From a virus (taxonomy: Duplodnaviria > Heunggongvirae > Uroviricota > Caudoviricetes), in the IMG/VR virus record IMGVR_UViG_3300009614_000107: DNA of 64,000 nt, one strand, 5' to 3'. Of this stretch, positions 6,375 to 52,073 are shown piece by piece. The notes beneath the pieces were generated by a model, which was not told where the DNA came from, did not search any database, and saw only the letters and a list, made by a program, of their open reading frames with translations. Each line of letters opens with the position of its first letter. Within the stretch, counting starts at the first letter, position 1. The position numbers and the translations under genes were made by a program.

Positions 6375-6403
6375 TGTAGTCTACCTGATAAAGGAACATA
6401 GAA

Positions 6404-6415
6404 TTTATAAATATT
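6404..6415. promoter_or_regulatory. TTTATAAATATT promoter-like element
   Basis: exact 12-mer about 30 nt upstream of minus-strand gene start 6374. Confidence 0.55.
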
Positions 6416-6446
6416 TGGAAATTATATGACATTTCTCTGGAGTAGA

Positions 6447-13330: not shown

Positions 13331-15175
13331 TTAGACTGCTTTGGTAGCTGCCTCTTTCTTTCGAAGCATCTGAGCCAGCCAGACATTGAGTAGGTTGCCT
13401 TGGGCTTCTCCACCATTGCCACCTGAAACTAGGATATCAGGTGTGATAGTGATCTTGCCAGAGGCAATCTGCTCGAACACCTTTAGCATTGCAACGTTGT
13501 CCTGACCTAGGACACCCATCTGTGCAGCATATGCTTTAGCTGTACCTACACCTTCCTGTTCATTCTTGTAAGCTGTACCGTCTGCCTGAGCCTTAGTTGC
13601 ATCACGAACACCAGCAGCTTCCATCCTTGCTGCATCTGCACGGTCTGCTGCAATATCGATTGACAGTTTAGCTGAGATAACGTCAGTCTGCTTGTCAGCC
13701 CTTGCCGTTTTCTCTGCTACAGCAATCCTCTGCTCCTGTGCAAGTGCTTCCTGCTGGTACTGTGCCTGTTGCTGGGCAGCTATTTCCTTCTTTGTCTGAG
13801 TTTCTAGTAGTGCCTTGTCAACATCAATGTAAGCAATTAGCAGCCCCTGAACCTCTGTGTGGTACTTCGAGAACTCTTCACGAGCCTTCTCAAGTGCCTG
13901 TTCCTGTAGTTCAGTTCGGCTGTGGACGAACTGCATTGCCTGTTTCTTGCCAGCTTCGTTACGGAAGGAGGAGTCGATCAGTGGGTGAGCAACCTGTTCA
14001 ATCAGGTTCTGTACAGTACCGAACCTTGCAATCACGAAAGGTGCATTGGCTGGAGGTACACGGATGATGAGCCTGACATCTACATCAAGCTGGAACCCAT
14101 CCATTGAAGTTACACGAAGTTGGCTGAACTTGAAGAACTCTGTGATCTTCTGGCTCTGGGAAACGTCCTTTCCCTGAGCTCCAAGTACACGTGTCTCTGC
14201 TGGACCCTCAGTTGATGCCCAATCTATAGTGATAGCGGAAGTAGGTACTAACTCAGGCTTGTAGGCGATTTGGTTAAGGTTGTACTTTCCAGGTGTAACT
14301 GGCTCGGCCAGAATACCACGCTGGTTCTTGTCAGTGATTAGAAGAGACTCAACTGTCTCTGGAATTGGGGAATTGAGATCAGGTGTCTTGCTGATTTTTG
14401 GTGCTTCACCACTAGGCTGGACTTCCTTTCCAACACTGGAAATGATTACAGCAACGTAGCCTGGTGGGACAACAGCAACATCATAGAGAGTGACTTGGAA
14501 TAGGTTAGTATTTATGTAGTAATCACCTGGCTGAAGTGTCTCAAGTTGTGGACCCCTGTAGCCACCAGCCTCAATGAAGGCTTGGCTGTCTTGGAAGTGC
14601 TTGTGATCTGATGTGGGTGCTGGAGCAATTATGAAACCAGATGGCAGTGAATTGCCATCCATAGCAACAACTACACCGACCCTCTCCTGTGGAACTTGTA
14701 CTGCACCAACTGCTGTGACTTTGAATACAGCTAGGTTGATACGATAAACACCTGGGCGAAGTACACCAATCTGAGGACCCTTCTTTCCACCATTCTTGAG
14801 GAATGCCCCTGCATCTTGGTACGAATTACATTCAACCTCATCTGCAAGGATACGACCAGATGGAATGGATTGTCCGTCAATGGACTCAACTAGACCAATA
14901 TTTCCCTGTGGAATCTCGGTCACTTCGACCTTCTTAATCTTCCAGATTATGGGGAAACGCCAGTAAAGTCCAGGCATAAGGGTTTCAGCTTGAATACCGA
15001 CCTCACCCTCAGTAGCAATGATTTTTCCCTGTGGTAATTTCTTGCCAAACATTTTCTTAACTAGGATACCGACCTCACCAGCTTTGATGAGAGCGAATCC
15101 TGGTAGCACGAAGAAAACTAAGCATATTAGTACGACAATGCCTAGAATCCCTAGTCCGATTAGATCTTCAAACAT
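13331..15175 (-). CDS. flotillin / SPFH (band-7) family membrane protein
   Basis: N-terminal TM; internal duplicated SPFH-like segments; Ala/Glu/Gln coiled-coil region; C-terminal ITITPDILVSGGNGGEAQGNLL typical of bacterial flotillin/YqiK; GC content visibly higher than flanks. Confidence 0.6.
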   Translation of the reverse strand: MFEDLIGLGILGIVVLICLVFFVLPGFALIKAGEVGILVKKMFGKKLPQGKIIATEGEVGIQAETLMPGLYWRFPIIWKIKKVEVTEIPQGNIGLVESIDGQSIPSGRILADEVECNSYQDAGAFLKNGGKKGPQIGVLRPGVYRINLAVFKVTAVGAVQVPQERVGVVVAMDGNSLPSGFIIAPAPTSDHKHFQDSQAFIEAGGYRGPQLETLQPGDYYINTNLFQVTLYDVAVVPPGYVAVIISSVGKEVQPSGEAPKISKTPDLNSPIPETVESLLITDKNQRGILAEPVTPGKYNLNQIAYKPELVPTSAITIDWASTEGPAETRVLGAQGKDVSQSQKITEFFKFSQLRVTSMDGFQLDVDVRLIIRVPPANAPFVIARFGTVQNLIEQVAHPLIDSSFRNEAGKKQAMQFVHSRTELQEQALEKAREEFSKYHTEVQGLLIAYIDVDKALLETQTKKEIAAQQQAQYQQEALAQEQRIAVAEKTARADKQTDVISAKLSIDIAADRADAARMEAAGVRDATKAQADGTAYKNEQEGVGTAKAYAAQMGVLGQDNVAMLKVFEQIASGKITITPDILVSGGNGGEAQGNLLNVWLAQMLRKKEAATKAV

Positions 15176-15216
15176 TTGAATACATCTCTGTTTGCAAATG
15201 TAGGACTGTGCTAAAG

Positions 15217-15228
15217 TTTATAAATATT
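15217..15228. promoter_or_regulatory. TTTATAAATATT promoter-like element
   Basis: about 40 nt upstream of flotillin-like gene start 15175; abuts tRNA 3' end. Confidence 0.55.
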
Positions 15229-15235
15229 TGGAATT

Positions 15236-15320
15236 TGGTGGGGTTACAAGGAGTCGAACCCTGACCCTTGGTTTTCCCCTATTTCTGGGGACCAAGATGC
15301 TACCGCTACACCATAACCCC
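15236..15320 (-). tRNA. tRNA with about 11-nt intron in anticodon loop; anticodon CCA (Trp) most likely, CCC (Gly) alternative; CCA end encoded
   Basis: acceptor GGGGTTA/TAACCCC, T-arm CAGGG-TTCGACT-CCTTG, CCCC..GGGG helix flanking anticodon-loop insert. Confidence 0.6.
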
Positions 15321-15368
15321 AATGATATGCTCTAAGAAATGTGTGAATTTATAAATCTTGTGATTGGG

Positions 15369-15797
15369 TTAATCCCCACCGCCACCGCCATCTCCCCCAC
15401 CACCGCCATCTCCTCCTCCTGCATCTCCACCACCACCAGCATCAGAACCACCACCACTGCCACCAGAGTCGATTCCACCACCTGAACCACCATTTGATGC
15501 ACTGCCTGAGTCACCTGGACTTGGACCCTCTTCGTCATCTCCATTTGAGGATGTTGATGGATTTGAACTACTTGAACTGCCACCACCGTCATAGAAGAAA
15601 TATGGCATCCAAGGAACCCATCCAGTGTCAGTCGAGTTGTCTTTGCCTGATGTCGGTTTTGGATATGACCTTGATTGCTGGTTAATCATAGCTGTTTTTA
15701 TATTGGAAAGTAAAATAACTGTCAATAACAGTATGACAAACACCATAATTGCTGAAAGGGCTAAAGTTAGCTTTGTTCCCGTTCTCATATCGATCAA
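15369..15797 (-). CDS. Gly/Asp-rich low-complexity protein with N-terminal membrane anchor
   Basis: TM LTLALSAIMVFVILLLTVILL then GGSGGG/GGGGD repeats. Confidence 0.45.
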   Translation of the reverse strand: MIDMRTGTKLTLALSAIMVFVILLLTVILLSNIKTAMINQQSRSYPKPTSGKDNSTDTGWVPWMPYFFYDGGGSSSSSNPSTSSNGDDEEGPSPGDSGSASNGGSGGGIDSGGSGGGSDAGGGGDAGGGDGGGGGDGGGGGD

Positions 15798-15900
15798 TAA
15801 ATTGTAAGTTTGAGTGTTTATAAATATTTAGTATATTTTTTATATAGATAATTAATAAAATTTTGTTTGAAACTAATTATCTCGGAAATAAATAATTATT

Positions 15901-16671
15901 TTATGGTATCAGTTCTATCTTAGTAACCGTATCATCATATGATGGTGCTTCATAGATAGTTCTGTCCCAATATGGTTGACCAACTTTAACGTGCATTATT
16001 ATATCAGTCTGTGGCTCGATGTAGACAATTCCCCTGTCTGTGGTGTTGAAAGCTACCAAAGCGTGTCCTACACTTGTTGGCATAAAATCACCCATCTCGA
16101 TAGACACAAAGAAACACCGATAACCAGCATTAAACGCATTTCTCTTCACATCTGATGTGAAATCGTGGCAAACATAGCTACCTTCTACATATTCTTTCTC
16201 ATCTGTCTTGTCATTCTGTATGAATGTAAGCATCTGTTGATATGTTGGGTCTTTGATATTAAATCCTGTAGCTTTCCATCCTTTTTGATATCCTACTGTA
16301 TAGCCTGTTTTTTCACCCAAGCCATAGCCAGTTGTATTTCCGACTTTGTAACCGTTGGTGTATCCAGTGGCAATACCAGCCGTGTTACCAGTATTGTATC
16401 CAGCTAGATCACCCACATTGTAGCCTCTACCATACCCAACGGAATCACCAGCCGTATATCCTGTATTATACCCATCCTTTGTTCCATTTGAATAACCAGA
16501 GGTATATCCAACTGGATAACCTGATTTGTATCCAGCAATCTGTCCCTCAGTATATCCAGCAATATGTCCTTGAGTGTTTCCAAAGTAAAAACCAAAAAAG
16601 GTTCCACCAAGGATCATTGCTGTCATTCCCACAATTACTATTGTACTTGTCTTTTGGTTCATTTCATTCAC
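15901..16671 (-). CDS. GY-hexapeptide-repeat protein with N-terminal TM and C-terminal globular domain
   Basis: about 17 tandem x-G-Y-x-x-G units. Confidence 0.5.
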   Translation of the reverse strand: MNEMNQKTSTIVIVGMTAMILGGTFFGFYFGNTQGHIAGYTEGQIAGYKSGYPVGYTSGYSNGTKDGYNTGYTAGDSVGYGRGYNVGDLAGYNTGNTAGIATGYTNGYKVGNTTGYGLGEKTGYTVGYQKGWKATGFNIKDPTYQQMLTFIQNDKTDEKEYVEGSYVCHDFTSDVKRNAFNAGYRCFFVSIEMGDFMPTSVGHALVAFNTTDRGIVYIEPQTDIIMHVKVGQPYWDRTIYEAPSYDDTVTKIELIP

Positions 16672-16715
16672 TATTACGTATTGATAATTAACTTACTTAA
16701 AAATGTTATGGATTA

Positions 16716-16795
16716 TGGCGGGTTCGGAGGGATTTGAACCCCCGACAAGTGGATTAAAAGTCCACTGCGCTAAGACCTGACTGCGCCACGAACCC
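16716..16795 (-). tRNA. tRNA-Lys (anticodon UUU), CCA encoded
   Basis: GGGTTCG...GGACTTTTAATCCAC...GGTTCAAATCC...CGAACCCGCCA. Confidence 0.8.
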
Positions 16796-16817
16796 AGCAC
16801 TGAATAGTATGACTGAA

Positions 16818-16829
16818 TTTATAAATATT
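16818..16829. promoter_or_regulatory. TTTATAAATATT promoter element for tRNA-Lys(UUU)
   Basis: centred about 28 nt upstream of tRNA 5' end. Confidence 0.6.
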
Positions 16830-16834
16830 GTGAA

Positions 16835-16912
16835 TGGTGGACTCGAAGGGATTTGAACCCCTGACCCTTGGCTTAGAAGGCCAATGCTCTATCCAAGCTG
16901 TGCTACGAGTCC
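16835..16912 (-). tRNA. tRNA-Arg (anticodon UCU), CCA encoded
   Basis: GGACTCG...loop CTTCTAA...GGTTCAAATCC...CGAGTCCACCA. Confidence 0.8.
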
Positions 16913-16914
16913 AA

Positions 16915-16993
16915 TGGTGAGTCTGAGGGGATTTGAACCCCTGAATGGAGGATTAAGGGTCCTCTGCGCTAGACCTTGCTACGCCACAGACTC
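16915..16993 (-). tRNA. tRNA-Lys (anticodon CUU), CCA encoded
   Basis: GAGTCTG...loop CCCTTAA...GGTTCAAATCC...CAGACTCACCA; 2 nt from tRNA-Arg, so co-transcribed. Confidence 0.7.
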
Positions 16994-17014
16994 AGCATAA
17001 AAGACAAAATCTGA

Positions 17015-17026
17015 TTTATAAATATT
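17015..17026. promoter_or_regulatory. TTTATAAATATT promoter element for tRNA-Lys(CUU)/tRNA-Arg pair
   Basis: about 25 nt upstream of tRNA 5' end. Confidence 0.6.
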
Positions 17027-17032
17027 TAGAAT

Positions 17033-17293
17033 CTACTCTTCTGGCTTCTCAGCGACTTCCTTTACACTATCAAGGAAATCTACATTGTTTGGAACTTCTA
17101 CAATATTCTTTGATGTCACTCCAATAGATTGAACAAGTACACCAAAAAATGCACCTAAACCAAGTATTCCAAAAAGATATATAATTTCATTAGGGTGAAT
17201 TAGGGTGAATATAAGTGAAACAACTATTGAAATTGATAATAGCAACCAACCCTTGGCATTAATGCCACCCTCTACCACAACTTTACGACTCAT
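17033..17293 (-). CDS. membrane protein
   Basis: two hydrophobic helices; contains tagggtgaat x2 tandem duplication. Confidence 0.4.
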   Translation of the reverse strand: MSRKVVVEGGINAKGWLLLSISIVVSLIFTLIHPNEIIYLFGILGLGAFFGVLVQSIGVTSKNIVEVPNNVDFLDSVKEVAEKPEE

Positions 17294-17565
17294 TTCTTTT
17301 TCACCTTTTTTATTTTCTCTGGAATTACAGCTTTTTGATTTTCAAGATAAGGATCATCTGGCTTACCAAGTTCGTCCCTAAGTTTTTTATTAATCCAGGC
17401 TTCAAATTTACATTTTTGACATTGTACTACCATTGGCTCTGGTAGCTGGTTTGGTCTTTTGCCCCATATTGGTATGAGAATAAATTTCCAATCTGCCTGA
17501 TAGGAATTATGTTCAGTGCAACCATTAGGACAATATATCCCTATGAATTCTTTAGGATCTGCCAT
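17290..17565 (-). CDS. zinc-ribbon protein
   Basis: CPNGC...CQKCKFEAW. Confidence 0.45.
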   Translation of the reverse strand: MADPKEFIGIYCPNGCTEHNSYQADWKFILIPIWGKRPNQLPEPMVVQCQKCKFEAWINKKLRDELGKPDDPYLENQKAVIPEKIKKVKKK

Positions 17566-17571
17566 ATTATA

Positions 17572-17727
17572 TCAAGTTCCCGTAACTGCTTTACCCATAA
17601 ATTCTGCAAGCCATAGCAGGACTTTGAAGATGAAATACACACCAACTCCTAGGGCAAAGACGAGCAGAAGATAGATTAATATCTTCTTTTCATTTGCGTG
17701 TTCATCATCTTCGTCTATGTCAAACAA
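17572..17727 (-). CDS. small tail-anchored membrane protein (51 aa, TTG start; below cutoff)
   Basis: AGGTGA SD 7 nt upstream of TTG; acidic N-terminus then one TM. Confidence 0.25.
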   Translation of the reverse strand: MFDIDEDDEHANEKKILIYLLLVFALGVGVYFIFKVLLWLAEFMGKAVTGT

Positions 17728-17734
17728 TTTAGGT

Positions 17735-17986
17735 TCACCTAACTTTCCTTATCTTGCTTGTAATTACAATTTCACCATCTTTAATATCCATTTTTACTGT
17801 TTGAATTTTAACTAGTTTGAAGATGTATTGATTGACACCTTGTTCATTAGCCCAACCTTGCTTAACATCCATTCCAAACTGTTTCTCTGCCTCTTTGAGG
17901 GTTTTGCACCAAGAAACTTGCTCGAAGGCACAACCATTACCGTGTGCTTCACGATTATCAAAACACTTAATATATTTTGTGCTCAT
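17735..17986 (-). CDS. hypothetical protein
   Basis: ORF. Confidence 0.4.
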   Translation of the reverse strand: MSTKYIKCFDNREAHGNGCAFEQVSWCKTLKEAEKQFGMDVKQGWANEQGVNQYIFKLVKIQTVKMDIKDGEIVITSKIRKVR

Positions 17987-18186
17987 TTCTTTGCAGACTC
18001 CTTCTCCTGTTTCATAACTGTAATACTATCCCAATAATTTTTCTCGTATATGCTCCTTCCTTTTTCATAGTTGAAAAAATGAATTAAGCACTCGATTACG
18101 TCTAATTCGTCTGTTGCCTCTCTTGAGAATTCGGTTTTTTGTTTACCTTCCTTTCCTTTCCATTTTATCGTGTATTTAGTGTTCAT
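17983..18186 (-). CDS. hypothetical protein
   Basis: ORF, overlapping start/stop. Confidence 0.4.
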   Translation of the reverse strand: MNTKYTIKWKGKEGKQKTEFSREATDELDVIECLIHFFNYEKGRSIYEKNYWDSITVMKQEKESAKK

Positions 18187-18419
18187 TCCTTTGCAACCTC
18201 TGCATCCACGGTCTTTAGGAATTCAATGAACTTGGCTATGTGGTTTTGACCAAGGTCATTCATAATCTCATCGTATCGCTCGACCCCTTCTGGATAGCCC
18301 ATCTCCTTGAGAACCTTGTCGATAATCTTCATTCGCTTGACAAGTCTTTCCTGTTCCTTGGGATCTGAGGATACAACCTTTCCATTTTTCACATACACAT
18401 TGATCGGCATTTGTTTCAC
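18183..18419 (-). CDS. hypothetical protein
   Basis: ORF. Confidence 0.4.
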   Translation of the reverse strand: MKQMPINVYVKNGKVVSSDPKEQERLVKRMKIIDKVLKEMGYPEGVERYDEIMNDLGQNHIAKFIEFLKTVDAEVAKE

Positions 18420-18629
18420 CTACACATTGAGAATCTTTGCCATTTTAATGAGATTCTTCTGTGTTTCAATTAGACTTTCCCTAATTGCTACAATCTCCAG
18501 AAGTTCTGGTGTGGTTATCTTATCAGTATTAAAAAATGCGTATTGATCAATCGCTTCTGCATATGGCTTCAAATCCATTGCAAAACGAACTCCTTCGAAC
18601 CACTGGCAATCACGCTTTCTAGCAGACAT
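18420..18629 (-). CDS. hypothetical protein
   Basis: ORF. Confidence 0.4.
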   Translation of the reverse strand: MSARKRDCQWFEGVRFAMDLKPYAEAIDQYAFFNTDKITTPELLEIVAIRESLIETQKNLIKMAKILNV

Positions 18630-18658
18630 TTTGAACGTAGGAGAGATAGATGTGTGAA

Positions 18659-18670
18659 TTTATAAATATT
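18659..18670. promoter_or_regulatory. TTTATAAATATT promoter-like element
   Basis: about 30 nt upstream of gene start 18629. Confidence 0.5.
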
Positions 18671-18682
18671 GTGATTAGTTAT

Positions 18683-18871
18683 TTATGGACAGATAATACT
18701 TCCTCTAATAAAATTATCATACTTCCTATTTTCCTTGAATTTCTCAATCTTTCTTTCACGTTCTGTAGGTGGAAGAACCTCACAAAAATTCGGGTATTGA
18801 TCCAAATGCCAGTGCCAGACCCATTCCTTATCCGACATTTGTTGACCACAATGCAAACACCTTACCATCAT
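18683..18871 (-). CDS. zinc-ribbon protein
   Basis: CLHCGQQ motif. Confidence 0.4.
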   Translation of the reverse strand: MMVRCLHCGQQMSDKEWVWHWHLDQYPNFCEVLPPTERERKIEKFKENRKYDNFIRGSIICP

Positions 18872-19290
18872 TTAGAATTGTTCACCTCACTGAGTTCTTC
18901 CATCAATGTTACTTTTTTGAGCTGGGTTGGTGGTGTTTGGACATCAATCGTTCCAAGTGTTGAGTCTACATTCCAAACCATAAACTTGAAACCACCAACT
19001 GTGAAATTTTGGGGTAAGTTGTTGTTATAAAATGTTATAATATATCCACCAAGGTGCATTGAATGTGTGAGAGGTGTAGCGGAAAATAAACCACCACCAT
19101 TGTCTGTAAAGCCATTATATGTGTATGGACCAAGTTGATCGCCTGGAATGAGGGTCACTATGTTCTTTGGTTTCAATGGAACTGGTGTTGTGAATACAGA
19201 TGAAATAATACTAATTATTGCTATAGACATAAATAATCCAAAAAATAGTTTTGGTATCATATCGAACATATCTAAGTCAGACACTTTCAT
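18868..19290 (-). CDS. membrane-anchored hypothetical protein
   Basis: N-terminal TM. Confidence 0.4.
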   Translation of the reverse strand: MKVSDLDMFDMIPKLFFGLFMSIAIISIISSVFTTPVPLKPKNIVTLIPGDQLGPYTYNGFTDNGGGLFSATPLTHSMHLGGYIITFYNNNLPQNFTVGGFKFMVWNVDSTLGTIDVQTPPTQLKKVTLMEELSEVNNSK

Positions 19291-19296
19291 TTCACC

Positions 19297-20142
19297 TTAT
19301 TCATCATCGTCTTGAGGATTAGAACGTGGTCTACCTCTCGGTCTTGTTGGTGGTAATGGTTGTGGCTTACTACGAACAAATGCACCTATTGAAAATGCCA
19401 TTGACATAACACAAAACCCAATAATTGTATAGAATTCCCATTCTGGTGCTATTTCTCCTTGGGGACCCTGAATGCCTTGAGGACCTGTTGCGCCTGTGTC
19501 ACCCTTATCACCCTTTGCACCAGTTGCACCAGTTAATCCCCTATCACCCTGTATTCCTTGTATTCCTTGTAATCCCTGTATGCCTTGTGTTCCGTTAAAT
19601 CCTCTTAATCCTTGAGGACCAACTGGACCAATAAGTTTTGCTTTTATAGTTGAGTTCAATTTATCAAACCAGTCTGGTGGTGGAATGAAATTTGTGATTG
19701 TAAATGATTTTGCAATTGTTACTTTACTTCCATCCATTCCTTCAACAATAATTTTTATTGTGTGCAGACCAAGATTAGAGTAGGGTGTTTGATTAGGTAC
19801 TAAAATAAATGTGTCCCAAGTTACTAAAATATTTGCTCCAGCAGTACTGTATAATGGTTCAGATTTAATAATCTCAGAAAAATCATCATAATATACATAT
19901 AAATATGAAGAAACTGGACAAGTTGTGTGATCAGCTTCTGGATTAACTTCAATATGTATATTTATTTTTGTATTAACATCACCAGATTCTGGTGATATTA
20001 TTACAGATAAATTATTTATTGGGACATCTGCTTTTATTAATTTAGGTGTAGAGATTACAAAACATATTAAAAAAATCATTAAGATAAATTTGTGTTTGAA
20101 CATTTTATAATTTCTCACCACAGTGTTTGCAAAACTGAGCAT
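19297..20142 (-). CDS. collagen-like triple-helix-repeat protein with signal peptide and C-terminal TM
   Basis: about 25 uninterrupted G-X-Y triplets (GPVGPQGLRGFNGTQGIQGLQGIQGIQGDRGLTGATGAKGDKGDTGATGPQGIQGPQG); C-terminal TM + RPRGRPR tail. Confidence 0.6.
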   Translation of the reverse strand: MLSFANTVVRNYKMFKHKFILMIFLICFVISTPKLIKADVPINNLSVIISPESGDVNTKINIHIEVNPEADHTTCPVSSYLYVYYDDFSEIIKSEPLYSTAGANILVTWDTFILVPNQTPYSNLGLHTIKIIVEGMDGSKVTIAKSFTITNFIPPPDWFDKLNSTIKAKLIGPVGPQGLRGFNGTQGIQGLQGIQGIQGDRGLTGATGAKGDKGDTGATGPQGIQGPQGEIAPEWEFYTIIGFCVMSMAFSIGAFVRSKPQPLPPTRPRGRPRSNPQDDDE

Positions 20143-20395
20143 CTTCAGAATTAAGTGTTTTGCATTTTTGGCATTTGATTTTTATACGTATTTTTTGGTC
20201 AGAATTAACTTCTTGTTTCATAATAATTTGCTGGTGTTGACTGGATGTGATTAAACCAGCAAAAAGTATTATTCCACCCAAAAACATTGCTGGAACACCT
20301 ATAAGTGCTCCTATAATTGTAAGTGAAATTAGCCATCCTAAAAAACCAATTATAAGCCCAATGATTATTAATCCAAGACGCAAGTTGATTACCAT
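20105..20395 (-). CDS. membrane protein with C-terminal double zinc ribbon
   Basis: start trimmed to MVINLRL to avoid overlap with tRNA-Ile; CQKCKTLNSEDAQFCKHCGEKL. Confidence 0.4.
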   Translation of the reverse strand: MVINLRLGLIIIGLIIGFLGWLISLTIIGALIGVPAMFLGGIILFAGLITSSQHQQIIMKQEVNSDQKIRIKIKCQKCKTLNSEDAQFCKHCGEKL

Positions 20396-20415
20396 AAAAT
20401 AACAAATATGAAAGT

Positions 20416-20427
20416 TTATAAATATTA
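20416..20427. promoter_or_regulatory. TTTATAAATATT promoter-like element
   Basis: 20 nt upstream of trimmed start 20395; abuts tRNA-Ile 3' end. Confidence 0.5.
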
Positions 20428-20433
20428 TGAAAA

Positions 20434-20510
20434 TGGTGGCGAAGAGCAGACTTGAACTGCTGATGCCCTGATTATCAGTCAGGTGGACTACCAAGCTGTC
20501 CTACTTCGCC
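20434..20510 (-). tRNA. tRNA-Ile (anticodon GAU), CCA encoded
   Basis: GGCGAAG...loop CTGATAA...GTTCAAGTC...CTTCGCCACCA. Confidence 0.8.
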
Positions 20511-20515
20511 AAGAA

Positions 20516-20596
20516 TGGTAGAGAGGATGGGATTCGAACCCACATAAAGGCAAGGATTATGAGTCCTCCGAGATAACCAGGTTCCTCTACCTCTCT
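20516..20596 (-). tRNA. tRNA-Met-like (anticodon CAU; A1:U72), CCA encoded
   Basis: AGAGAGG...loop CTCATAA...GGTTCGAATCC...CCTCTCTACCA; 5 nt from tRNA-Ile. Confidence 0.65.
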
Positions 20597-20628
20597 GGGT
20601 ATTATAAATAAAGTGTGTTTATAAAGAT

Positions 20629-22086
20629 TTATTCTCTGACGATGTAAAGGTTGTTTAATGACCTTGTTAGAGCTACAAACTTGCAGTTATCTTCCTCTTT
20701 CAACTGCTGGGGATTGCCCTGCTTTACAGCATATGGGTGTGGCATAAGATCATAGCGGAGTATGTAGACGTTCTCAGACTCAAGTCCCTTAGCCCTATGA
20801 ACACTGCTGAAAACTATGCCCTCAATATTGTCACGGAAAATGAATTTCACTTTTGATGTAAGATCGGTTATGGTTTTGCTCTCATCGGCTATAGCAAAGA
20901 TTGTGTCAACCCTGTCACTGAGGGTGAGTATTGATGCTTCCTTTTTCTGGATCTTCAACTTCTCGGTCTGCTTCTGCTGGTACTCTTTCAGACCGATTAG
21001 GAAAGTGCTGAGATCGGTAGCACCACACATCTTTACGACACGGTTGATTAGGTTCTCAAGCTGATCGCCTATGCTCTTGCCAACAATTATGACCTTCTTG
21101 CCGTTTCGAATAAGTTCGAAGGCTGGTTCTACGAGAGGGGCATTTGTTCGGCAGAGAACCATATCCTTCGGCTGGACTTTTTTCATAAATGTGGGATAGT
21201 CTATTTCCTCAACTTTTCCCTGCTTGGCATTTGGACCACATTCGTGTGTGATGTTTGGGAAGGTCTTGTTTACAAAGGCAACGACAGACTTTGGGTTTCT
21301 GTAACTGATGCTGAGTGGAAATTCGACAGCATCAAGCATATTTCCCAAGTAATCCATAGCATTGATTCCAGCTCCACGGAAACCGTATATGGCTTGGTTT
21401 CTGTCACCGATTACTATTGTGCATCCGTTGGGTTTCCTGATTTTGAGGATCATTTGAACCTGAGTCTCGTTCAAGTCCTGTGCCTCATCAACAAGGACAT
21501 AATCGTATTTTCTCATTGGGATATCGAGAACGACAGGAAGCCAGATCATATCATCATAATCGATTGTTTGTGTGTCTTTTTTAGATCGTTGTATAACATA
21601 ATTAACGGCCTTGAACACTGTTTTTTCATTACCATTTAATTTAATGTTATAGAAATCACACATTTCAATCATAGAATCTTCATCTTCTGAATCTGTTAAT
21701 GTGTTTTTCACATATTGAACAACTTTAGCAATTGTCTGCCAGAGCATTTTATTGACAACAGTGTCCTCTAGGATTGAGTATGTTTTTTGATTGTCCATAA
21801 TGAAATTACCATATACATTACGAAGTTCACGATTGCCAAGAGAATGAAGTGTTTTTGCTTCTCCACCAGGCATATTTGCTAGTTTTTCTTTTGCCTCAAG
21901 TTGATTCTTTTTATTAAAAACAAGATATATCCAGCTTTTATTTTTTGGTATATAATTTTTAATAAACTCTTGAATTGTTCGAGTTTTACCAGAGCCAGCA
22001 GTTGCACTCACTATGATGTTCTTATCTCCCTTTCTGCCAGCCTCAAAGATTGCCTTCTGGTATGAGGACGGGACGAATGTTGACAT
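20629..22086 (-). CDS. SF1 UvrD/Rep-like DNA helicase
   Basis: Walker A VSATAGSGKTRT, Walker B VLVDEAQDLN, IVIGDRNQAIYGFRGA (helicase motif III). Confidence 0.7.
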   Translation of the reverse strand: MSTFVPSSYQKAIFEAGRKGDKNIIVSATAGSGKTRTIQEFIKNYIPKNKSWIYLVFNKKNQLEAKEKLANMPGGEAKTLHSLGNRELRNVYGNFIMDNQKTYSILEDTVVNKMLWQTIAKVVQYVKNTLTDSEDEDSMIEMCDFYNIKLNGNEKTVFKAVNYVIQRSKKDTQTIDYDDMIWLPVVLDIPMRKYDYVLVDEAQDLNETQVQMILKIRKPNGCTIVIGDRNQAIYGFRGAGINAMDYLGNMLDAVEFPLSISYRNPKSVVAFVNKTFPNITHECGPNAKQGKVEEIDYPTFMKKVQPKDMVLCRTNAPLVEPAFELIRNGKKVIIVGKSIGDQLENLINRVVKMCGATDLSTFLIGLKEYQQKQTEKLKIQKKEASILTLSDRVDTIFAIADESKTITDLTSKVKFIFRDNIEGIVFSSVHRAKGLESENVYILRYDLMPHPYAVKQGNPQQLKEEDNCKFVALTRSLNNLYIVRE

Positions 22087-22088
22087 TT

Positions 22089-22313
22089 TTATACTTCCAA
22101 TGCTAATTCTCTACAAAGTTGTATAAACTCATTTTCTTGGCGTAGTGGATTAATATCCTCAATTTTTGAATTAAAAATATAACCACATTTTGGGCAGAGG
22201 CAATAATTCATCCAATAGCGATCTTCAATCAGCTTACGATAATAAAGTGGTTTTATATCACATTGTGGGCATACCCTATTTAGGATAATGTCCAAGTCCC
22301 TGTTGGTCAACAT
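22089..22313 (-). CDS. small zinc-ribbon protein
   Basis: CPQCD...CLCPKCGY. Confidence 0.45.
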   Translation of the reverse strand: MLTNRDLDIILNRVCPQCDIKPLYYRKLIEDRYWMNYCLCPKCGYIFNSKIEDINPLRQENEFIQLCRELALEV

Positions 22314-22364
22314 TTTATACGGTGTAGATGTGTTTAGTACTCTTATAAATATTGTGGATTATAG

Positions 22365-22570
22365 TTACAGGGGAGTGATTGGCTCCCCTGCCTGAGCTTC
22401 CTTGGTTATCAACCAGTGGACATTGAGACATACACGGTGATCAGTCGTGCTGTTACTCATTCTCAGGACGTATTTACCTGTCGCTTTCCCGATTACTAGT
22501 CGGGAGCAACATAGGGAACCACACCATTGGTAAGGTGTTACGCACAGGTTCCTTCGTAGAAGAAACACGT
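22365..22570 (-). ncRNA. candidate structured non-coding RNA (about 200 nt), family unassigned
   Basis: GC-richer island between promoter elements at 22345 and 22577; only a 67-aa low-complexity ORF; hairpins such as ggggagtgattggctcccc. Confidence 0.3.
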
Positions 22571-22576
22571 TAAGAC

Positions 22577-22588
22577 TTTATAAATATT
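22577..22588. promoter_or_regulatory. TTTATAAATATT promoter-like element
   Basis: immediately upstream of the candidate ncRNA; abuts tRNA-Thr 3' end. Confidence 0.5.
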
Positions 22589-22664
22589 TGGAGCCCCAGG
22601 CAGGACTCGGACCTGCGACCATCAACTTACAAGGTTGACGCACTACCAACTATGCTACAGGGGC
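22589..22664 (-). tRNA. tRNA-Thr (anticodon UGU), CCA encoded
   Basis: GCCCCTG...loop CTTGTAA...GGTCCGAGTCC...CTGGGGCTCCA (one U-U mismatch in acceptor stem). Confidence 0.7.
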
Positions 22665-22700
22665 AACAGTGGTAAAAGGTATGTGTATGGTTATAAATAT

Positions 22701-23208: not shown

Positions 23209-25005
23209 TCACCTAATAGCTTCCTTAAACCACTTCGGGAAGAATCCTATATTCTGGTTGAATAAGTCTGAGAACTTCCCATCAATTATGAAAGTCTCAC
23301 CCCAATCGTCAACACTTCTACAGACTCTACCATAAGTCTGGATTAGGAGCATTGCGGTTGTCCAGTTGTACCAGGATTGATCCTTTTCGACCCTCTTCTT
23401 AATCTGAGGATCACCGAGAGATGGATAGGGTACTTTAACTAGGACTTGCCATCTAGCCAAATCATCTTTTAGGTCGATGCCCATTTTCATACTCGGTGTT
23501 GTCATAATGCAAGGTGCTTTTGCTTGGAAGAATCTCTCGAAAGTATCTTCACGCCTCTCATCTGTGTCAATAAAGTTTCCTCTCTCATCTCTAAGAGAAA
23601 CATTGGTCATCATATACTGCTTGTATTTTGAATTAGCCATAATATATCTTGCAATTTCGTTATTGTGAGTGTGTATTACACCTTTGTGCTGCAAACGAGT
23701 TGGAATGATATCGTTGTCAATTATTCTAAGCATATTCGGTAGGAACTGATCCATTTCTTTGAAAATCGCTCTTCCAGCAAATTTTTGGTAGAGTGGACGA
23801 TGTTCGACTGGGAATGTTGAGTTGCCTATTCTGAAAAACTTAACCTCTTCTTCTATGCCTAAGTATTTCTGTAATTTTTCTTTGTCAAGTATTGTGGCCG
23901 ATATAAGAATGTGTTTGTCAGTGTGCTTGAAAAGCTGGTCAGAATATTTATTAATTGTAACTGGTTTGAAAGTGGCAGATGTTTTGTCTTTTAAGACAAC
24001 CCAGTTATCAATATCATCTTCTAGACTATCTAGCAACTCTGTGATTCTATTTGTTATATTTTCAACTGTTTTACGACTCTTCAGTTCTTGTACACGATTT
24101 GAACTATCACCTATATCCCTTTGGATTGAGGCGAAAGTTCCATACTTTTCTGAGATCCCTTTAAGTTCACCCTGGATATTCTGCAACCATTTTTCCCAAT
24201 CTTCCATTTTTGTGTATTCTGGTATTATTGGAAATGGCATATCTTTAAAATACATCCAAATACCATTAAATGTTCTCGAAGAAATTAAAACTTCAATATA
24301 GGTCATTAAAGTATTTTCGATTGTGTGTGCCTCATCAAAGATTCCTAAAAATCTTTTATTGAAGCTGTGTGCGTGATTTTGTTCGTGAAGGTAATAGGAA
24401 TAGTTGTGGATGGTAAGAGGTGAATGGATTGCCTTGTCCTTGGCTTGCCAGTAGGCACAGAGTGGATAAGAACAATTGCTCCAATCGAACTTAACTCCAA
24501 ACTTGTCACGATCTGCTCTCGGTGACGCATTATCATCTTCAAAATTTTCTGGGTCAATTTCAGCACCCATCTCCATATCGGTTAGTGCAGACTCACGTTT
24601 TACTTGGTTTGCCTTGTGGGGGCATTTGTAACCATTAATCAGGGTACACGGTGCTCTGTCTGCATAGAGTGTGTTCCCTATTCTCTCAGCCCAAAACTCT
24701 GGTTCCATATCTCCTGCTGTGAGAGAGCAGGGATAATTGCCCCTACCTTTGATTAGTGCTATGTCTGGAAAATCACGTAGATACTGTCCCTGTAGGTAGA
24801 TGTCGTTTACAACAAAGTGTGTAAGGTTGCCATATTCCTGATAGACATACTTAGCGATTGCATAGGCTACAGGTGACTTACCAAAGCCTGTAGGTGCTTC
24901 TAGGAAGATGTAATTGTAGGGATCAAGGTTGGCTTCTATAAGACTTAGGATTTCCTTCTGGTATGGACGGAATTCCTTGAATGGGAAACAGGCTTCAATT
25001 GCCAA
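23209..25005 (-). CDS. SF2 DEAH-box DNA helicase
   Basis: Walker A APTGFGKSPV, DEAH box IFDEAHTIEN, helicase C-terminal region. Confidence 0.65.
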   Translation of the reverse strand: MAIEACFPFKEFRPYQKEILSLIEANLDPYNYIFLEAPTGFGKSPVAYAIAKYVYQEYGNLTHFVVNDIYLQGQYLRDFPDIALIKGRGNYPCSLTAGDMEPEFWAERIGNTLYADRAPCTLINGYKCPHKANQVKRESALTDMEMGAEIDPENFEDDNASPRADRDKFGVKFDWSNCSYPLCAYWQAKDKAIHSPLTIHNYSYYLHEQNHAHSFNKRFLGIFDEAHTIENTLMTYIEVLISSRTFNGIWMYFKDMPFPIIPEYTKMEDWEKWLQNIQGELKGISEKYGTFASIQRDIGDSSNRVQELKSRKTVENITNRITELLDSLEDDIDNWVVLKDKTSATFKPVTINKYSDQLFKHTDKHILISATILDKEKLQKYLGIEEEVKFFRIGNSTFPVEHRPLYQKFAGRAIFKEMDQFLPNMLRIIDNDIIPTRLQHKGVIHTHNNEIARYIMANSKYKQYMMTNVSLRDERGNFIDTDERREDTFERFFQAKAPCIMTTPSMKMGIDLKDDLARWQVLVKVPYPSLGDPQIKKRVEKDQSWYNWTTAMLLIQTYGRVCRSVDDWGETFIIDGKFSDLFNQNIGFFPKWFKEAIR

Positions 25006-25948
25006 CGTCTATACCACCGAGTTGATATTTTCTTACGTGATTACGAATTGAAACCTCTGTCACGCCACAGGTTGTTGCTATAACCTTCTGGGAGATGTTA
25101 AGTTCCATCTTCTTGGATGCCAGATAAATTGCACAAGCTGCTACACAGAGTGGACTTGAGCCACTTGTGATTTTTAAGTCCTCTGCCTCTCTGCAAATCT
25201 TTAGGGCTAACATTTCAAATTCACCAGATAGGTTTAACTTAGAGGTGAACTGGGAAATAAAGATTGCAGGATCCCTGCGAGTTGGCTTGATCTTCATTGA
25301 TTCTACCATAAGGCGATAGCAACGAGCAATATCCTTCTTGTCGATGCCTGTGACCTCTTCAATATTCTCCATTGTTGTTGGAATGCCATTCTCTCTGAGG
25401 CTGTAGTACATACAGGCAACTAGGATTTGCTGGATTGAACGTCCTCTAATGAGGTTTATGGCCACCGATTTTGTAAATATATCAAAGATATCGTCATCTA
25501 TTGCATCTGGTATGCTGAGTCTGTATTTGTAGGTTGTATAAAGTGACCTTGCAGAGGATAGTGTTCTGGTTAGAGATGCCTTATCACCTGTTGCCCTATT
25601 GTTCATTCTTGAAAGACGAAGATATTCTATCTTCTTTTCTCCTGTAAGTTTCTTGTTTTGACCATCTAAATTTGACCAAGGAGCAATCCTTGTATGGCTT
25701 GAAGAGCCATTAACGACACCTGGATTTGTGATTGGCGTAGCCCTGTCAAGTTGCTGTGGCTCACCATCAAAGTTTCGCCATTCCTTGTCTCTGGAAATTA
25801 CTTGTTCCTCAAGAACAACCAACCCACAGTTTTTGCAAACAACCTCACCAGTAACATTATCGTGATAGAAGTCACGACTGCCACAAATTGGGCAGTTTAA
25901 TGGAGCATCTTGTGGGGCTTCGTGGGACGGGTCATTAGACATAAACAT
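24995..25948 (-). CDS. tfb: transcription factor B (TFIIB homolog)
   Basis: N-terminal Zn ribbon CPICGSRDFYHDNVTGEVVCKNCG; cyclin-fold core; start trimmed to MFMSNDP about 20 nt downstream of TATA at 25968. Confidence 0.8.
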   Translation of the reverse strand: MFMSNDPSHEAPQDAPLNCPICGSRDFYHDNVTGEVVCKNCGLVVLEEQVISRDKEWRNFDGEPQQLDRATPITNPGVVNGSSSHTRIAPWSNLDGQNKKLTGEKKIEYLRLSRMNNRATGDKASLTRTLSSARSLYTTYKYRLSIPDAIDDDIFDIFTKSVAINLIRGRSIQQILVACMYYSLRENGIPTTMENIEEVTGIDKKDIARCYRLMVESMKIKPTRRDPAIFISQFTSKLNLSGEFEMLALKICREAEDLKITSGSSPLCVAACAIYLASKKMELNISQKVIATTCGVTEVSIRNHVRKYQLGGIDVGN

Positions 25949-25967
25949 CACTCCTATTGTACCTACA

Positions 25968-25979
25968 TTTATAAATATT
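25968..25979. promoter_or_regulatory. TTTATAAATATT promoter element for tfb (near-leaderless)
   Basis: between PolB stop (25989) and tfb start. Confidence 0.55.
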
Positions 25980-25988
25980 ATGAGATTT

Positions 25989-44235: not shown

Positions 44236-44326
44236 GCTGAAACACCTTAGTGTATGATAATTCCCTCCTTAGAATAAAAAAGTTATGATAAATATTTAAT
44301 ACTCGATTATATATGATTATAATGAC

Positions 44327-52071: not shown

Positions 52072-52073
52072 TT

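What the first reader, a model, noticed from the sequence alone, without database searches (positions are those of the whole stretch)
15236..22664. Element-borne tRNA set biased to A/U-ending codons, including an intron-containing tRNA
The seven tRNAs are Lys-UUU, Lys-CUU, Arg-UCU, Ile-GAU, Met-CAU, Thr-UGU and one with an anticodon-loop intron (CCA/Trp most likely). All have genomically encoded CCA and their own promoter copies; two pairs are co-transcribed. Lys-UUU, Arg-UCU, Ile-GAU and Thr-UGU decode AAA, AGA, AUU/AUC and ACA, the codons that dominate the AT-rich genes here. This resembles the compensatory tRNA sets that large viruses carry when their codon usage differs from a GC-richer host. 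The intron (CCCC…GGGG helix around the anticodon loop) implies dependence on a host splicing endonuclease, an archaeal host signature.
Basis: partly seen in the sequence, partly recalled or inferred. Interest (0 to 1): 0.55.

Follow-up and report, generated by a model that had tools for sequence, protein, structure and literature searches.

The report
Seven tRNA genes on archaeal virus-like element
A large, previously uncharted archaeal virus-like DNA element carries its own seven tRNA genes, one with an intron. This is a known kind of viral accessory, here in a new lineage, and only partly explained by A/U-rich codon usage.

Summary
Seven tRNA genes lie on the minus strand between 15236 and 22664: Trp-CCA, Lys-UUU, Arg-UCU, Lys-CUU, Ile-GAU, a CAU tRNA and Thr-UGU. 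All encode CCA. They form five transcription units behind the element's own TATA-type promoter, and two pairs are 2 and 5 nt apart. Trp-CCA is best read as carrying an 11-nt intron at 37/38 in a relaxed bulge-helix-loop.

The window is an archaeal virus-like element (PolB, TFB, XPD, UvrD and RFC genes; no cellular housekeeping genes). The same sequence occurs in public metagenomes on contigs up to 198 kb. Its family is absent from IMG/VR and from GTDB representative genomes.

Six of the tRNAs are specific to this element. Close relatives lack them at the syntenic sites. Only the CAU tRNA is shared, with compensatory changes, and it looks initiator-like (A1:U72).

One gene (SPFH) points to Bathyarchaeia as host lineage. 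Against GC-rich proxies, Lys-UUU and Thr-UGU serve the codons most in excess. Lys-CUU, Trp and CAU are not explained this way.

Two tRNAs have C33 instead of the universal U33, which is unexplained.

The parts
15236..15320 (-). tRNA-Trp(CCA) gene with encoded CCA. Predicted mature anticodon loop is CCCCAGA (C33). Carries G1:C72, G2:C71 and A73.
   Evidence: ARAGORN; Rfam 46.9 bits; sequence; fold; archaeal Trp identity set
15274..15284 (-). Predicted 11-nt intron AAATAGGGGAA at position 37/38. The central 4-bp helix CCCC/GGGG stacks on the anticodon stem, with a 3-nt AAA bulge on the 3' side and a 7-nt loop on the 5' side (relaxed bulge-helix-loop). The boundaries can slide by one base within the A run without changing the product.
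   Evidence: Rfam alignment shows a 17-nt stretch where the model has 6 loop positions, within a perfect 5-bp stem; RNAfold structure; ARAGORN's intron-free alternative needs a mismatched stem and an unpaired 14-nt variable region
15348..15356 (-). TATA-type promoter box for tRNA-Trp; 27 nt from the box to the mature 5' end
   Evidence: repeat family D3
16716..16795 (-). tRNA-Lys(UUU) gene with encoded CCA and G73
   Evidence: (66 bits)
16818..16826 (-). TATA-type promoter box for tRNA-Lys(UUU); 22 nt to the mature 5' end
16835..16912 (-). tRNA-Arg(UCU) gene with encoded CCA. Second gene of the Lys-CUU/Arg-UCU pair (2-nt spacer).
   Evidence: (64.1 bits)
16915..16993 (-). tRNA-Lys(CUU) gene with encoded CCA. 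Anticodon loop is CCCUUAA (C33); A73.
   Evidence: (58.4 bits; alignment shows C at model position U33)
17015..17023 (-). TATA-type promoter box for the Lys-CUU/Arg-UCU unit; 21 nt to the mature 5' end
20434..20510 (-). tRNA-Ile(GAU) gene with encoded CCA. Second gene of the CAU/Ile pair (5-nt spacer). Absent at this spot in the sister element L169.
   Evidence: (64.2 bits)
20516..20596 (-). CAU tRNA gene with encoded CCA. Has A1:U72, a purine-rich D-stem 5' strand (A11:U24), anticodon stem GAGGA/UCCUU and an 8-nt variable loop. It is the only tRNA shared with relatives (L169, L156).
   Evidence: 54 bits; 11 pairs with compensatory changes among three copies
20618..20625 (-). TATA-type promoter box (TTTATAAA) for the CAU/Ile unit, just after the UvrD stop codon; 21 nt to the mature 5' end
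22589..22664 (-). tRNA-Thr(UGU) gene with encoded CCA. Has G1:C72, C2:G71, C3:G70 and U73. T-loop is UCCGAGU (C55), with a U6:U67 mismatch.
   Evidence: (65.5 bits)
22690..22697 (-). TATA-type promoter box (TTTATAAC) for tRNA-Thr; 25 nt to the mature 5' end
20629..22086 (-). UvrD-like helicase, a backbone gene flanked by tRNA-Thr and the CAU/Ile pair. Used as the anchor for comparison with the sister elements.
13331..15175 (-). SPFH/Band 7 protein gene directly downstream of tRNA-Trp. Its closest cellular homologues (72-75% identity) are named Candidatus Bathyarchaeota.

Best explanation
These are seven working tRNA genes that one lineage of a large archaeal virus-like element acquired as accessory cargo. 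The family is known so far only from metagenomes and is probably associated with Bathyarchaeia.

The genes sit in variable intergenic slots of a conserved replication backbone. Each unit is transcribed from the element's own TATA-type promoter, with little or no 5' leader, and already carries its CCA end. The second tRNA of each pair would be released by host RNase P. The 11-nt intron of pre-tRNA-Trp would be removed by the host splicing endonuclease and ligase.

The mature tRNAs add to the host pool during infection. They mainly serve the element's heavy use of Lys (AAA/AAG), Ile, Thr (ACA) and Arg (AGA) codons.

Shown: the genes, their promoters and CCA ends, the predicted structures, the restriction to this lineage, and the match to the element's codon usage.

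Inferred: expression, splicing, charging, the host, and the benefit.
For: - Seven tRNAs are found by two independent methods.
- CCA ends, spacers and promoters are read directly from the sequence. The promoter motif is ten-fold enriched and shared with protein genes.
- The acceptor ends of tRNA-Trp and tRNA-Thr match the archaeal identity sets.
- The window is an element, not a chromosome. It has PolB, TFB, XPD, UvrD, RFC, a DUF3987 helicase, UDG, HNH-AP2, a T4 endoV-like gene and many tiny same-strand ORFs, with no housekeeping genes. The backbone is syntenic with metagenomic relatives.
- The same sequence is independently assembled in L168 (1 mismatch in 14,747 nt), and its SPFH protein lies on contigs up to 197,619 bp.
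- Across 27 loci from relatives (about 373 kb, partly redundant), only L156 and L169 hold a tRNA, and in both it is the CAU tRNA.
- The syntenic slots in L169 (after UvrD) and L175 (before SPFH) lack Ile-GAU, Trp and the Lys/Arg/Lys genes.
- The seven tRNAs' cognate codons make up 22.9-23.7% of the element's codons against 15.6% for random sets (P about 0.02-0.03).
- Against the GC-rich proxies L177 and L169, AAA ranks 1st, ACA 2nd-3rd and AGA 7th-10th in excess demand. Set-wise, 0.7-5.5% of random sets do as well.
- Lys content rises from 4.7% in L177 to 8.0% in the element. In UvrD, Lys rises from 32 to 48 residues between the two sister elements.
- There is precedent: the haloarchaeal virus HGTV-1 carries 34 tRNA genes, one with an intron (PMC13532342).
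Against: - The host is unknown. The Bathyarchaeia link rests on one gene (SPFH, 72-75% identity), and that class spans a wide GC range.
- A 39% GC element in a 61% GC host would be an unusually large gap.
- Lys-CUU, Trp-CCA and the CAU tRNA show no excess demand. tRNAs for GAA, CCA, GCA, CAA and TTA would be expected but are absent.
- AT-rich relatives (GC 34-41%) carry no tRNAs in the stretches visible.
- Several tRNAs depart from near-universal positions (C33 twice, C55 once, one A:A and one U:U stem mismatch). This could mean reduced function.
- There are no expression data.
- No capsid or terminase gene lies in the window, so 'virus' is not shown.
Confidence: 0.55

Rival explanations
1. 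Counter-defence tRNAs. The set replaces host tRNAs that archaeal tRNA-cleaving defences (VapC, HEPN or other anticodon nucleases) destroy on infection. The unusual anticodon-loop bases make the element's copies resistant.
For: - Two of seven tRNAs carry C33 next to the anticodon, while 29 of 29 other tRNAs in the fetched loci have U33.
- The shared CAU tRNA has altered anticodon-stem pairs.
- Lys, Trp, Arg, Thr and initiator tRNAs are typical nuclease targets, and phage tRNAs with anticodon-loop changes have been proposed to evade them (PMC10264068).
- Relatives encode tRNA end-repair enzymes: Thg1-like in L172/L173 and a class II CCA-adding enzyme with an HD domain in L001-L003.
- The set is only partly explained by codon usage.
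Against: - No archaeal anticodon nuclease or host is identified.
- No host tRNAs are available for comparison, so 'mutated relative to host' is untested.
- For the one nuclease checked in the literature (K. lactis gamma-toxin), U33C had no effect on cleavage.
- No tRNA repair gene was found in the window itself.
Confidence: 0.2
2. Recently captured passengers with little or no function. The tRNA genes were picked up by recombination into hypervariable intergenic slots and are drifting.
For: - They are restricted to one lineage.
- They depart from universal positions (C33 twice, C55, stem mismatches).
- They have no close match in IMG/VR, JGI metagenomes or 185,579 species genomes for the distinctive Lys D-arm.
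Against: - All seven keep complete cloverleaves, correct discriminator bases, CCA ends and a well-placed promoter of the element's own type.
- Their sequences are diverged from any cellular tRNA found, which argues for long residence rather than recent capture.
- The CAU tRNA shows 11 compensatory pair changes among three elements, i.e. selection on structure.
Confidence: 0.12
3. The CAU tRNA is not an ordinary elongator Met tRNA. It is either a family-specific initiator-like tRNA, or tRNA-Ile2 that reads AUA after agmatidine modification.
For: - Initiator-like features: A1:U72 (U1:A72 in L169), a weak 1:72 pair being the hallmark of archaeal and eukaryotic initiators (PMC5393177); R11:Y24; and a GGG run in the L169 anticodon stem.
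- Ile2-like argument: AUA is the commonest Ile codon here (33 per thousand, against 25 for AUG). It remains frequent even in the GC-rich sister (19 of 42 Ile codons in UvrD).
Against: - Against initiator: the three consecutive G:C pairs of the anticodon stem are incomplete (2 of 3 in the window, 1 of 3 in L156).
- Against Ile2: G1:C72 is usual for elongators, and no TiaS determinant could be tested.
- The L156 copy has lost G18G19 and the T-loop UUC, and falls below the Rfam threshold.
Confidence: 0.4
4. The tRNAs belong to a cellular chromosome (for example a small archaeal genome or an integrated provirus with host tRNAs as attachment sites), not to a mobile element.
For: Part of the window (44-63 kb) is a sugar and glycan biosynthesis island of lower GC that could pass for a cellular surface-glycan cluster.
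Against: - No ribosomal, translation or central housekeeping gene occurs in 64 kb.
- No integrase was detected and no direct repeat matches a tRNA 3' end.
- A hexapeptide transferase of the island has a 41% homologue in relatives L001/L002.
- The promoters are of the element's own type.
- The family backbone recurs on separate contigs of varied GC.
Confidence: 0.03

Closest known systems
tRNA gene sets of archaeal head-tailed viruses, e.g. Halogranum virus HGTV-1 (34 tRNA genes, one with an intron; PMC13532342)
   Same: Virus-borne tRNA genes in an archaeal setting, including an intron-bearing one. They are lower in GC than host tRNAs, explained only in part by codon usage, and their function is untested.
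   Different: Different lineage: the PolB here is at most 24% identical to haloarchaeal virus PolBs. The set is much smaller (7). All genes encode CCA. The probable host lineage is Bathyarchaeia rather than Halobacteria. No capsid gene has been seen yet.
Phage T4-type small tRNA cluster (eight tRNAs including Arg-UCU, Thr-UGU and Ile-CAU; from my own knowledge, not tested here)
   Same: A small clustered set that includes Arg-UCU, Thr-UGU and a CAU tRNA, in an AT-rich virus. It is the classical case for codon compensation.
   Different: T4 is bacterial, with no introns of the archaeal type and different promoters. T4 lacks the Lys pair and Trp. The CAU tRNA there is Ile2, while here it looks initiator-like.
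Phage tRNAs proposed to evade host anticodon nucleases through anticodon-loop changes (PMC10264068; also PMC11555353)
   Same: Viral tRNAs that depart from the norm in the anticodon loop (here C33 in Lys-CUU and Trp-CCA) and that codon usage does not fully explain.
   Different: Those cases have known hosts, known nucleases and host tRNAs for comparison. None of these is available here, and no case is known in archaea.
Cellular archaeal intron-containing pre-tRNA-Trp (BHB motif at 37/38; PMC6379350)
   Same: Intron at the canonical 37/38 site. A 4-bp helix involving positions 32-35 stacks on the anticodon stem, with a 3-nt bulge on the 3' side.
   Different: The intron is only 11 nt long with no inner helix, so the 5' cleavage site lies in a 7-nt loop (relaxed BHL). 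It carries no C/D-box guide. The gene is on a mobile element.

Membership tests
tRNA (Rfam RF00005) | Cloverleaf scoring above the family's gathering score | tested here: met
   All seven score 46.9-66 bits against 29; ARAGORN agrees
tRNA (Rfam RF00005) | Near-universal bases U33, G18G19 and U54-U55-C56 | tested here: inconclusive
   Five of seven have U33; Lys-CUU and Trp-CCA have C33. Thr-UGU has C55. All have GG in the D-loop.
Archaeal intron-containing pre-tRNA (BHB motif) | Intron at 37/38 whose removal restores a 7-nt loop on a 5-bp stem | tested here: met
   Removing AAATAGGGGAA gives stem UUGGU/ACCAA and loop CCCCAGA
Archaeal intron-containing pre-tRNA (BHB motif) | Two 3-nt bulges separated by a 4-bp helix (strict hBHBh') | tested here: not met
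   The 4-bp CCCC/GGGG helix and the 3' AAA bulge are present. The 5' site lies in a 7-nt loop with no inner helix, so this is the relaxed BHL form (definitions in PMC6379350).
Archaeal intron-containing pre-tRNA (BHB motif) | Cleavage by a splicing endonuclease and ligation | not testable with these tools
   No EndA or RtcB gene was found among the window ORFs scanned. Splicing by the host is inferred.
Archaeal-type tRNA identity | Trp: A73, G1:C72, G2:C71, CCA anticodon. Thr: U73, G1:C72, C2:G71, C3:G70. | tested here: met
   Sequences compared with Table 1 of PMC9976931
Virus-encoded compensatory tRNA set | Carried on a viral genome | tested here: inconclusive
   The gene content is virus-like (PolB, homing endonuclease, endoV-like gene, dense tiny ORFs), but no capsid, portal or terminase gene lies in the window
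Virus-encoded compensatory tRNA set | tRNAs match codons the virus uses more than its host does | tested here: inconclusive
   The host is unknown. With proxies (L177 Bathyarchaeota chromosome, L169 GC-rich sister), Lys-UUU, Thr-UGU and Arg-UCU fit, while Lys-CUU, Trp and CAU do not. The set as a whole lies in the top 0.7-5.5%.
Virus-encoded compensatory tRNA set | Own expression signals | tested here: met
   An element-type TATA box lies 21-27 nt upstream of each of the five units. Transcription itself was not measured.
Archaeal initiator tRNA (for the CAU tRNA) | A1:U72 pair | tested here: met
   A1:U72 in the window and L156; U1:A72 in L169. Hallmark described in PMC5393177.
Archaeal initiator tRNA (for the CAU tRNA) | Three consecutive G:C pairs at 29-31:39-41 (established knowledge) | tested here: not met
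   Window: G29:C41, G30:C40, A31:U39. L156: only G30:C40. L169: G:C, G:U, G:C.
tRNA-Ile2 (agmatidine, AUA-reading) (for the CAU tRNA) | CAU anticodon plus the determinants for TiaS and IleRS | not tested
   The anticodon is present. The determinants were not found in the accessible literature, and no isotype-specific model was available here.
Anti-defence (nuclease-resistant) viral tRNAs | Anticodon-loop differences from the host's own isoacceptor at a nuclease's recognition or cleavage site | not testable with these tools
   Neither host tRNAs nor host nucleases are known. Only the departure from the universal U33 is seen.

The most novel reading that the evidence does not exclude
The tRNA genes belong to a fight over tRNAs between a new family of roughly 200-kb Bathyarchaeia viruses and their hosts. 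On this reading the C33 variants of Lys-CUU and Trp-CCA, and the family-conserved initiator-like CAU tRNA, are versions that resist nucleases or escape host control. They would work alongside the tRNA end-repair enzymes (Thg1-like, CCA-adding) seen in relatives. This would be the first evidence of such a conflict in archaea.
Probability: 0.15. Interest if true: 0.7.

Novelty: new member of a known kind. Interest (0 to 1): 0.42.

Why it matters
Virus-borne tRNAs are well studied in bacteria but barely studied in archaea, where only haloarchaeal viruses provide examples.

This case adds a non-halophilic lineage that is probably associated with Bathyarchaeia. It has a compact, clearly accessory set of tRNA genes and a built-in comparison: one sister element is 15 points richer in GC and carries only the shared CAU tRNA, and another AT-rich sister has none at the syntenic site. 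That makes the two ideas, codon supply and counter-defence, testable once the host is fixed.

The carrier itself matters too. If the family proves viral, its contigs of 190-214 kb would exceed HGTV-1, which PMC13532342 calls the largest known archaeal virus genome.

Tried and rejected
1. Searching for the family in IMG/VR. A single-protein scan found nothing, and a profile scan gave PolBs of at most 26% identity. The family is not in that collection.
2. Searching GTDB species genomes with a family-specific PolB segment to obtain host bins. Result: 0 relatives.
3. Searching for the source of the tRNAs with patterns from the distinctive Lys D-arm and anticodon arm. Result: 0 in IMG/VR and 0 in JGI metagenomes. 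The 68 hits in genomes were all in bacterial records and none in an archaeon, which I take to be chance (about 26 expected by my own estimate). A pattern for the CAU tRNA gave 0 in IMG/VR.
4. blastn of the 7.9-kb tRNA region against 50,697 phage records. Only weak tRNA-level matches to bacterial phages at 75-80% identity.
5. Borg-like element. Rejected: the tandem repeats are few and short.
6. Integrated provirus with tRNA attachment sites. No direct repeat matches a tRNA end and no integrase was detected.
7. ARAGORN's intron-free fold of tRNA-Trp. Rejected as the poorer model: it needs a mismatched stem with G:U pairs and an unpaired 14-nt variable region.
8. A covariance model of the CAU tRNA, searched over 20 sources (the window plus 19 related loci). 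No further copies beyond the window and L156. The L169 copy was fetched afterwards and found by ARAGORN.
9. Amino-acid composition of SPFH homologues as a proxy for host GC. Uninformative.
10. Sample accession numbers searched in the literature. Nothing found.
11. TiaS determinants and a role for C33 in nuclease escape, looked up in the literature. Nothing decisive.

Full report
**1. The observation**

ARAGORN finds seven tRNA genes in the window, all on the minus strand between 15236 and 22664: Trp-CCA, Lys-UUU, Arg-UCU, Lys-CUU, Ile-GAU, a CAU tRNA and Thr-UGU. The Rfam tRNA model recovers the same seven at 46.9-66 bits against a threshold of 29. Nothing else in 64 kb reaches any family's threshold, and a permissive scan of 14-24 kb adds nothing.

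The sequence shows CCA directly after every discriminator base. It shows a 2-nt spacer between Lys-CUU and Arg-UCU and a 5-nt spacer between the CAU tRNA and Ile-GAU. A TTTATAAA-type box lies 21-27 nt upstream of the first tRNA of each of the five units.

The core motif ATTTATAAA occurs 24 times against 2.3 expected. It forms repeat families with its flanks and also precedes protein genes, for example the small ORF starting near 18628. So these are the element's general promoters, not tRNA-specific ones. The spacing implies transcripts that start at, or a few bases before, the mature 5' end. That is an inference from the usual archaeal TATA-to-start distance.

**2. The intron**

In the Trp gene a perfect 5-bp stem (UUGGU/ACCAA) encloses 18 nt instead of 7. 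The Rfam alignment treats the excess as an insertion in the anticodon loop. RNAfold pairs CCCC with GGGG directly on top of the anticodon stem, leaving an AAA bulge on the 3' side and a 7-nt loop.

Applying the usual cleavage rule for the archaeal bulge-helix-bulge motif (after the second base of each bulge) removes AAATAGGGGAA (15274-15284). This leaves the loop CCCCAGA with anticodon CCA and G37.

The motif is the relaxed bulge-helix-loop form, because there is no inner helix. According to PMC6379350, relaxed forms are cut efficiently by the (alpha-beta)2 and epsilon2 endonucleases, and at 37/38 in a full-length precursor also by an alpha'2 enzyme.

ARAGORN itself proposes an intron-free fold. 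That fold needs a stem with a mismatch and two G:U pairs, plus an unpaired 14-nt variable region. I regard it as the poorer model. Both models give the same anticodon.

**3. What carries the genes**

The window encodes the following:
- family B DNA polymerase (25989-28325) followed by a TFIIB/TFB homologue (24995-26005);
- XPD-like and UvrD-like helicases;
- two RFC-like ATPases;
- a DUF3987 helicase;
- UDG;
- a PD-(D/E)XK nuclease;
- an HNH-AP2 homing endonuclease;
- a T4 endoV-like glycosylase;
- a GH5 glycosidase;
- an SPFH protein;
- dozens of tiny same-strand ORFs.

From 44 to 63 kb lies a sugar and glycan biosynthesis island of lower GC. No housekeeping gene and no capsid or terminase gene was found.

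The PolB has only 24 homologues among 5.8 billion proteins, the best at 54% identity. These sit on metagenomic contigs of up to about 214 kb with the same PolB-TFB-XPD-UvrD order. The family is absent from IMG/VR (best PolB 26%) and from 185,579 species genomes.

The window itself is not an artefact. A JGI contig (L168) matches 14,747 nt with one mismatch and holds all seven tRNAs. The identical SPFH protein is recorded on seven contigs, the longest 197,619 bp.

I call it a virus-like extrachromosomal element. 'Virus' is likely but not shown.

**4. Host lineage**

The SPFH gene next to tRNA-Trp has cellular homologues at 72-75% identity that NCBI names Candidatus Bathyarchaeota. The next tier (63-69%) is Methanoregula, Methanospirillum and Methanocella.

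One of the Bathyarchaeota copies lies in an ordinary chromosomal context with ribosomal protein genes (L177, GCA_026394265.1). That stretch has GC 61.5% and GC3 0.85. This is a single-gene hint, not a host assignment.

The acceptor ends of tRNA-Trp and tRNA-Thr match the archaeal identity sets. TFB, the promoters and the intron agree with an archaeal host.

**5. Are the tRNAs a family trait?**

No. In 27 loci from relatives (about 373 kb, partly redundant) only two tRNAs appear, and both are homologues of the CAU tRNA.

- The closest sister by UvrD (L169, 87% amino-acid identity) has the CAU tRNA in the same place right after UvrD. The next promoter follows immediately, where the window has Ile-GAU.
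- A sister by SPFH (L175, 83%, a 105-kb contig, GC 40.7%) is syntenic downstream of SPFH. It has other ORFs and no tRNA where the window has Trp and Lys/Arg/Lys.

The six other tRNAs are therefore cargo of this lineage, placed in variable slots of a conserved backbone.

The three CAU tRNAs keep the cloverleaf through 11 pairs with changes on both sides. This argues for selection on structure. They have a weak 1:72 pair (A:U or U:A) and a purine at position 11, which are initiator traits (PMC5393177). They lack the full run of three G:C pairs in the anticodon stem. The window copy has an 8-nt variable loop, the L156 copy an 18-nt one. The L156 copy has also lost G18G19 and the T-loop UUC together. 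Whether this tRNA is an initiator, an elongator Met or Ile2 remains open.

**6. Codon usage**

The element's GC3 is 0.32. AAA is the commonest codon (43.6 per thousand), AAG is fourth, and ACA and ATA are tied next. AGA makes up 51% of Arg codons.

The cognate codons of the seven tRNAs make up 22.9-23.7% of all codons, against 15.6% for random sets of seven (P about 0.02-0.03). Six of seven read ANN codons (P about 7e-4, post hoc).

The sister L169 provides a natural comparison. With 87% identical UvrD, its GC3 is 0.88 against 0.42. At conserved Lys positions it uses AAG only, while the window uses AAA at 19 of 31. ACA replaces ACC or ACG at 14 of 26 conserved Thr positions. Lys rises from 32 to 48 residues as Arg falls from 30 to 19.

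Measured against L169 or the Bathyarchaeota chromosome L177, excess demand ranks as follows:
- AAA first;
- ACA second or third;
- AGA seventh to tenth;
- AUY eleventh to fifteenth;
- UGG sixteenth to nineteenth;
- AUG 26th-29th;
- AAG 28th-43rd of 45.

The summed excess of the set is matched by 0.7-5.5% of random sets. So the compensation idea fits Lys-UUU and Thr-UGU well and Arg-UCU fairly. The higher Lys and Ile content may account for Lys-CUU and Ile-GAU. Trp and the CAU tRNA are left unexplained, as is the absence of tRNAs for GAA and CCA. Other AT-rich relatives manage without tRNAs in the stretches seen.

**7. Oddities**

- Lys-CUU (loop CCCUUAA) and Trp-CCA (loop CCCCAGA) have C33. 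All 29 other tRNAs in the fetched loci have U33.
- Thr-UGU has C55 and a U:U mismatch, and Arg-UCU has an A:A mismatch.
- Relatives carry a Thg1-like enzyme and a class II CCA-adding enzyme.

These points fit the proposal that viral tRNAs replace host tRNAs destroyed by defence nucleases (PMC10264068). Nothing here tests that proposal, and for the one nuclease I could check, U33C made no difference.

**8. Comparison with what is known, and verdict**

tRNA genes in archaeal viruses are known. HGTV-1 has 34, one with an intron, and they too are only partly explained by codon usage (PMC13532342). The present set is a new member of that kind in an uncharted lineage.

The main value lies in the comparison with the sister elements and in the carrier family itself.

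Noticed in passing
window 1-64000; L001-L003, L084-L087, L156-L176: The window belongs to an uncharted family of large archaeal virus-like elements with a PolB-TFB-XPD-UvrD-RFC backbone. Contigs reach 190-214 kb and the window's own sequence lies on a contig of 197,619 bp. The family is absent from IMG/VR and from GTDB species genomes. If viral, these would exceed HGTV-1, described as the largest known archaeal virus genome.
   Followed up: partly
L169 1-6639 compared with window 20629-22086: Two sister elements share 87% amino-acid identity in UvrD but differ by about 15 points in GC (53.6% against 39%). GC3 in UvrD is 0.88 against 0.42. This is an unusually fast compositional split, perhaps a host switch.
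   Followed up: partly
L172 858-1643 and L173 844-1629; L001 18672-20120: Relatives encode a Thg1-like protein (tRNA 5'-end repair or addition) and a class II (bacterial/eukaryotic-type) CCA-adding enzyme with an HD domain. No such gene was found in the window.
   Followed up: no
L156 13036-13125 (-): The homologue of the CAU tRNA in this relative has an 18-nt variable arm. It has lost both G18G19 and the T-loop UUC, the two partners of the elbow contact. It keeps all stems through compensatory changes but scores below the Rfam threshold.
   Followed up: partly
window 13331-15175 (-): The SPFH/Band 7 gene is 72-75% identical to chromosomal genes named Candidatus Bathyarchaeota. It is apparently host-derived, and sister elements keep it (83-85% identity).
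   Followed up: yes
window 44300-63500 (-): A 19-kb island of lower GC (31-35%) encodes glycosyltransferases, methyltransferases, WbqC, PIG-L deacetylase, hexapeptide acyltransferases, an epimerase, a B12-radical SAM enzyme, a transaldolase-like protein and a GHMP kinase. This is a complete-looking sugar modification pathway on the element.
   Followed up: partly
window 1456-2022 (-); L084 2544-7757, L085 2930-9723, L087 1287-9880: Relatives carry preQ0/7-deazaguanine synthesis genes (FolE, QueD, QueE, QueC) next to PolB. The window has a radical SAM ORF that may be the QueE counterpart. This suggests modified DNA bases in the family.
   Followed up: no
window 2872-2953 (+): A weak tRNA-like stretch lies antisense to ORF 2672-3094. 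Its first 19 nt resemble the 5' end of the CAU tRNA (2 mismatches) and it ends in ...CTCTTTGCCA. It scores 14 bits (E about 0.9) with the CAU tRNA model. It may be a relic or chance.
   Followed up: no
window 29470-30027 (-); P0005-P0007, P0017: An HNH-AP2 homing endonuclease gene sits beside PolB. Several relatives' PolB genes are 1080-1148 aa long with intein or LAGLIDADG domains. Selfish elements are therefore active around the polymerase gene.
   Followed up: no
window 40871-43147 (+): A 758-aa protein with a GH5 (cellulase family) domain and a second glycosidase-like region, which is unusual cargo for an archaeal element.
   Followed up: no
window 36829-38322 (+): The DUF3987 helicase has a C-terminal region with a weak match to the EAP30/Vps36 (ESCRT-II winged-helix) family (E = 1e-4).
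   Followed up: no
window 15213-15241, 20411-20439, 22573-22592, 6400-6428: The 3' end of a tRNA, about 10 nt and the next gene's promoter recur as a near-identical module (76-95% identity). This suggests the tRNA units were inserted or copied together with promoter cassettes.
   Followed up: partly
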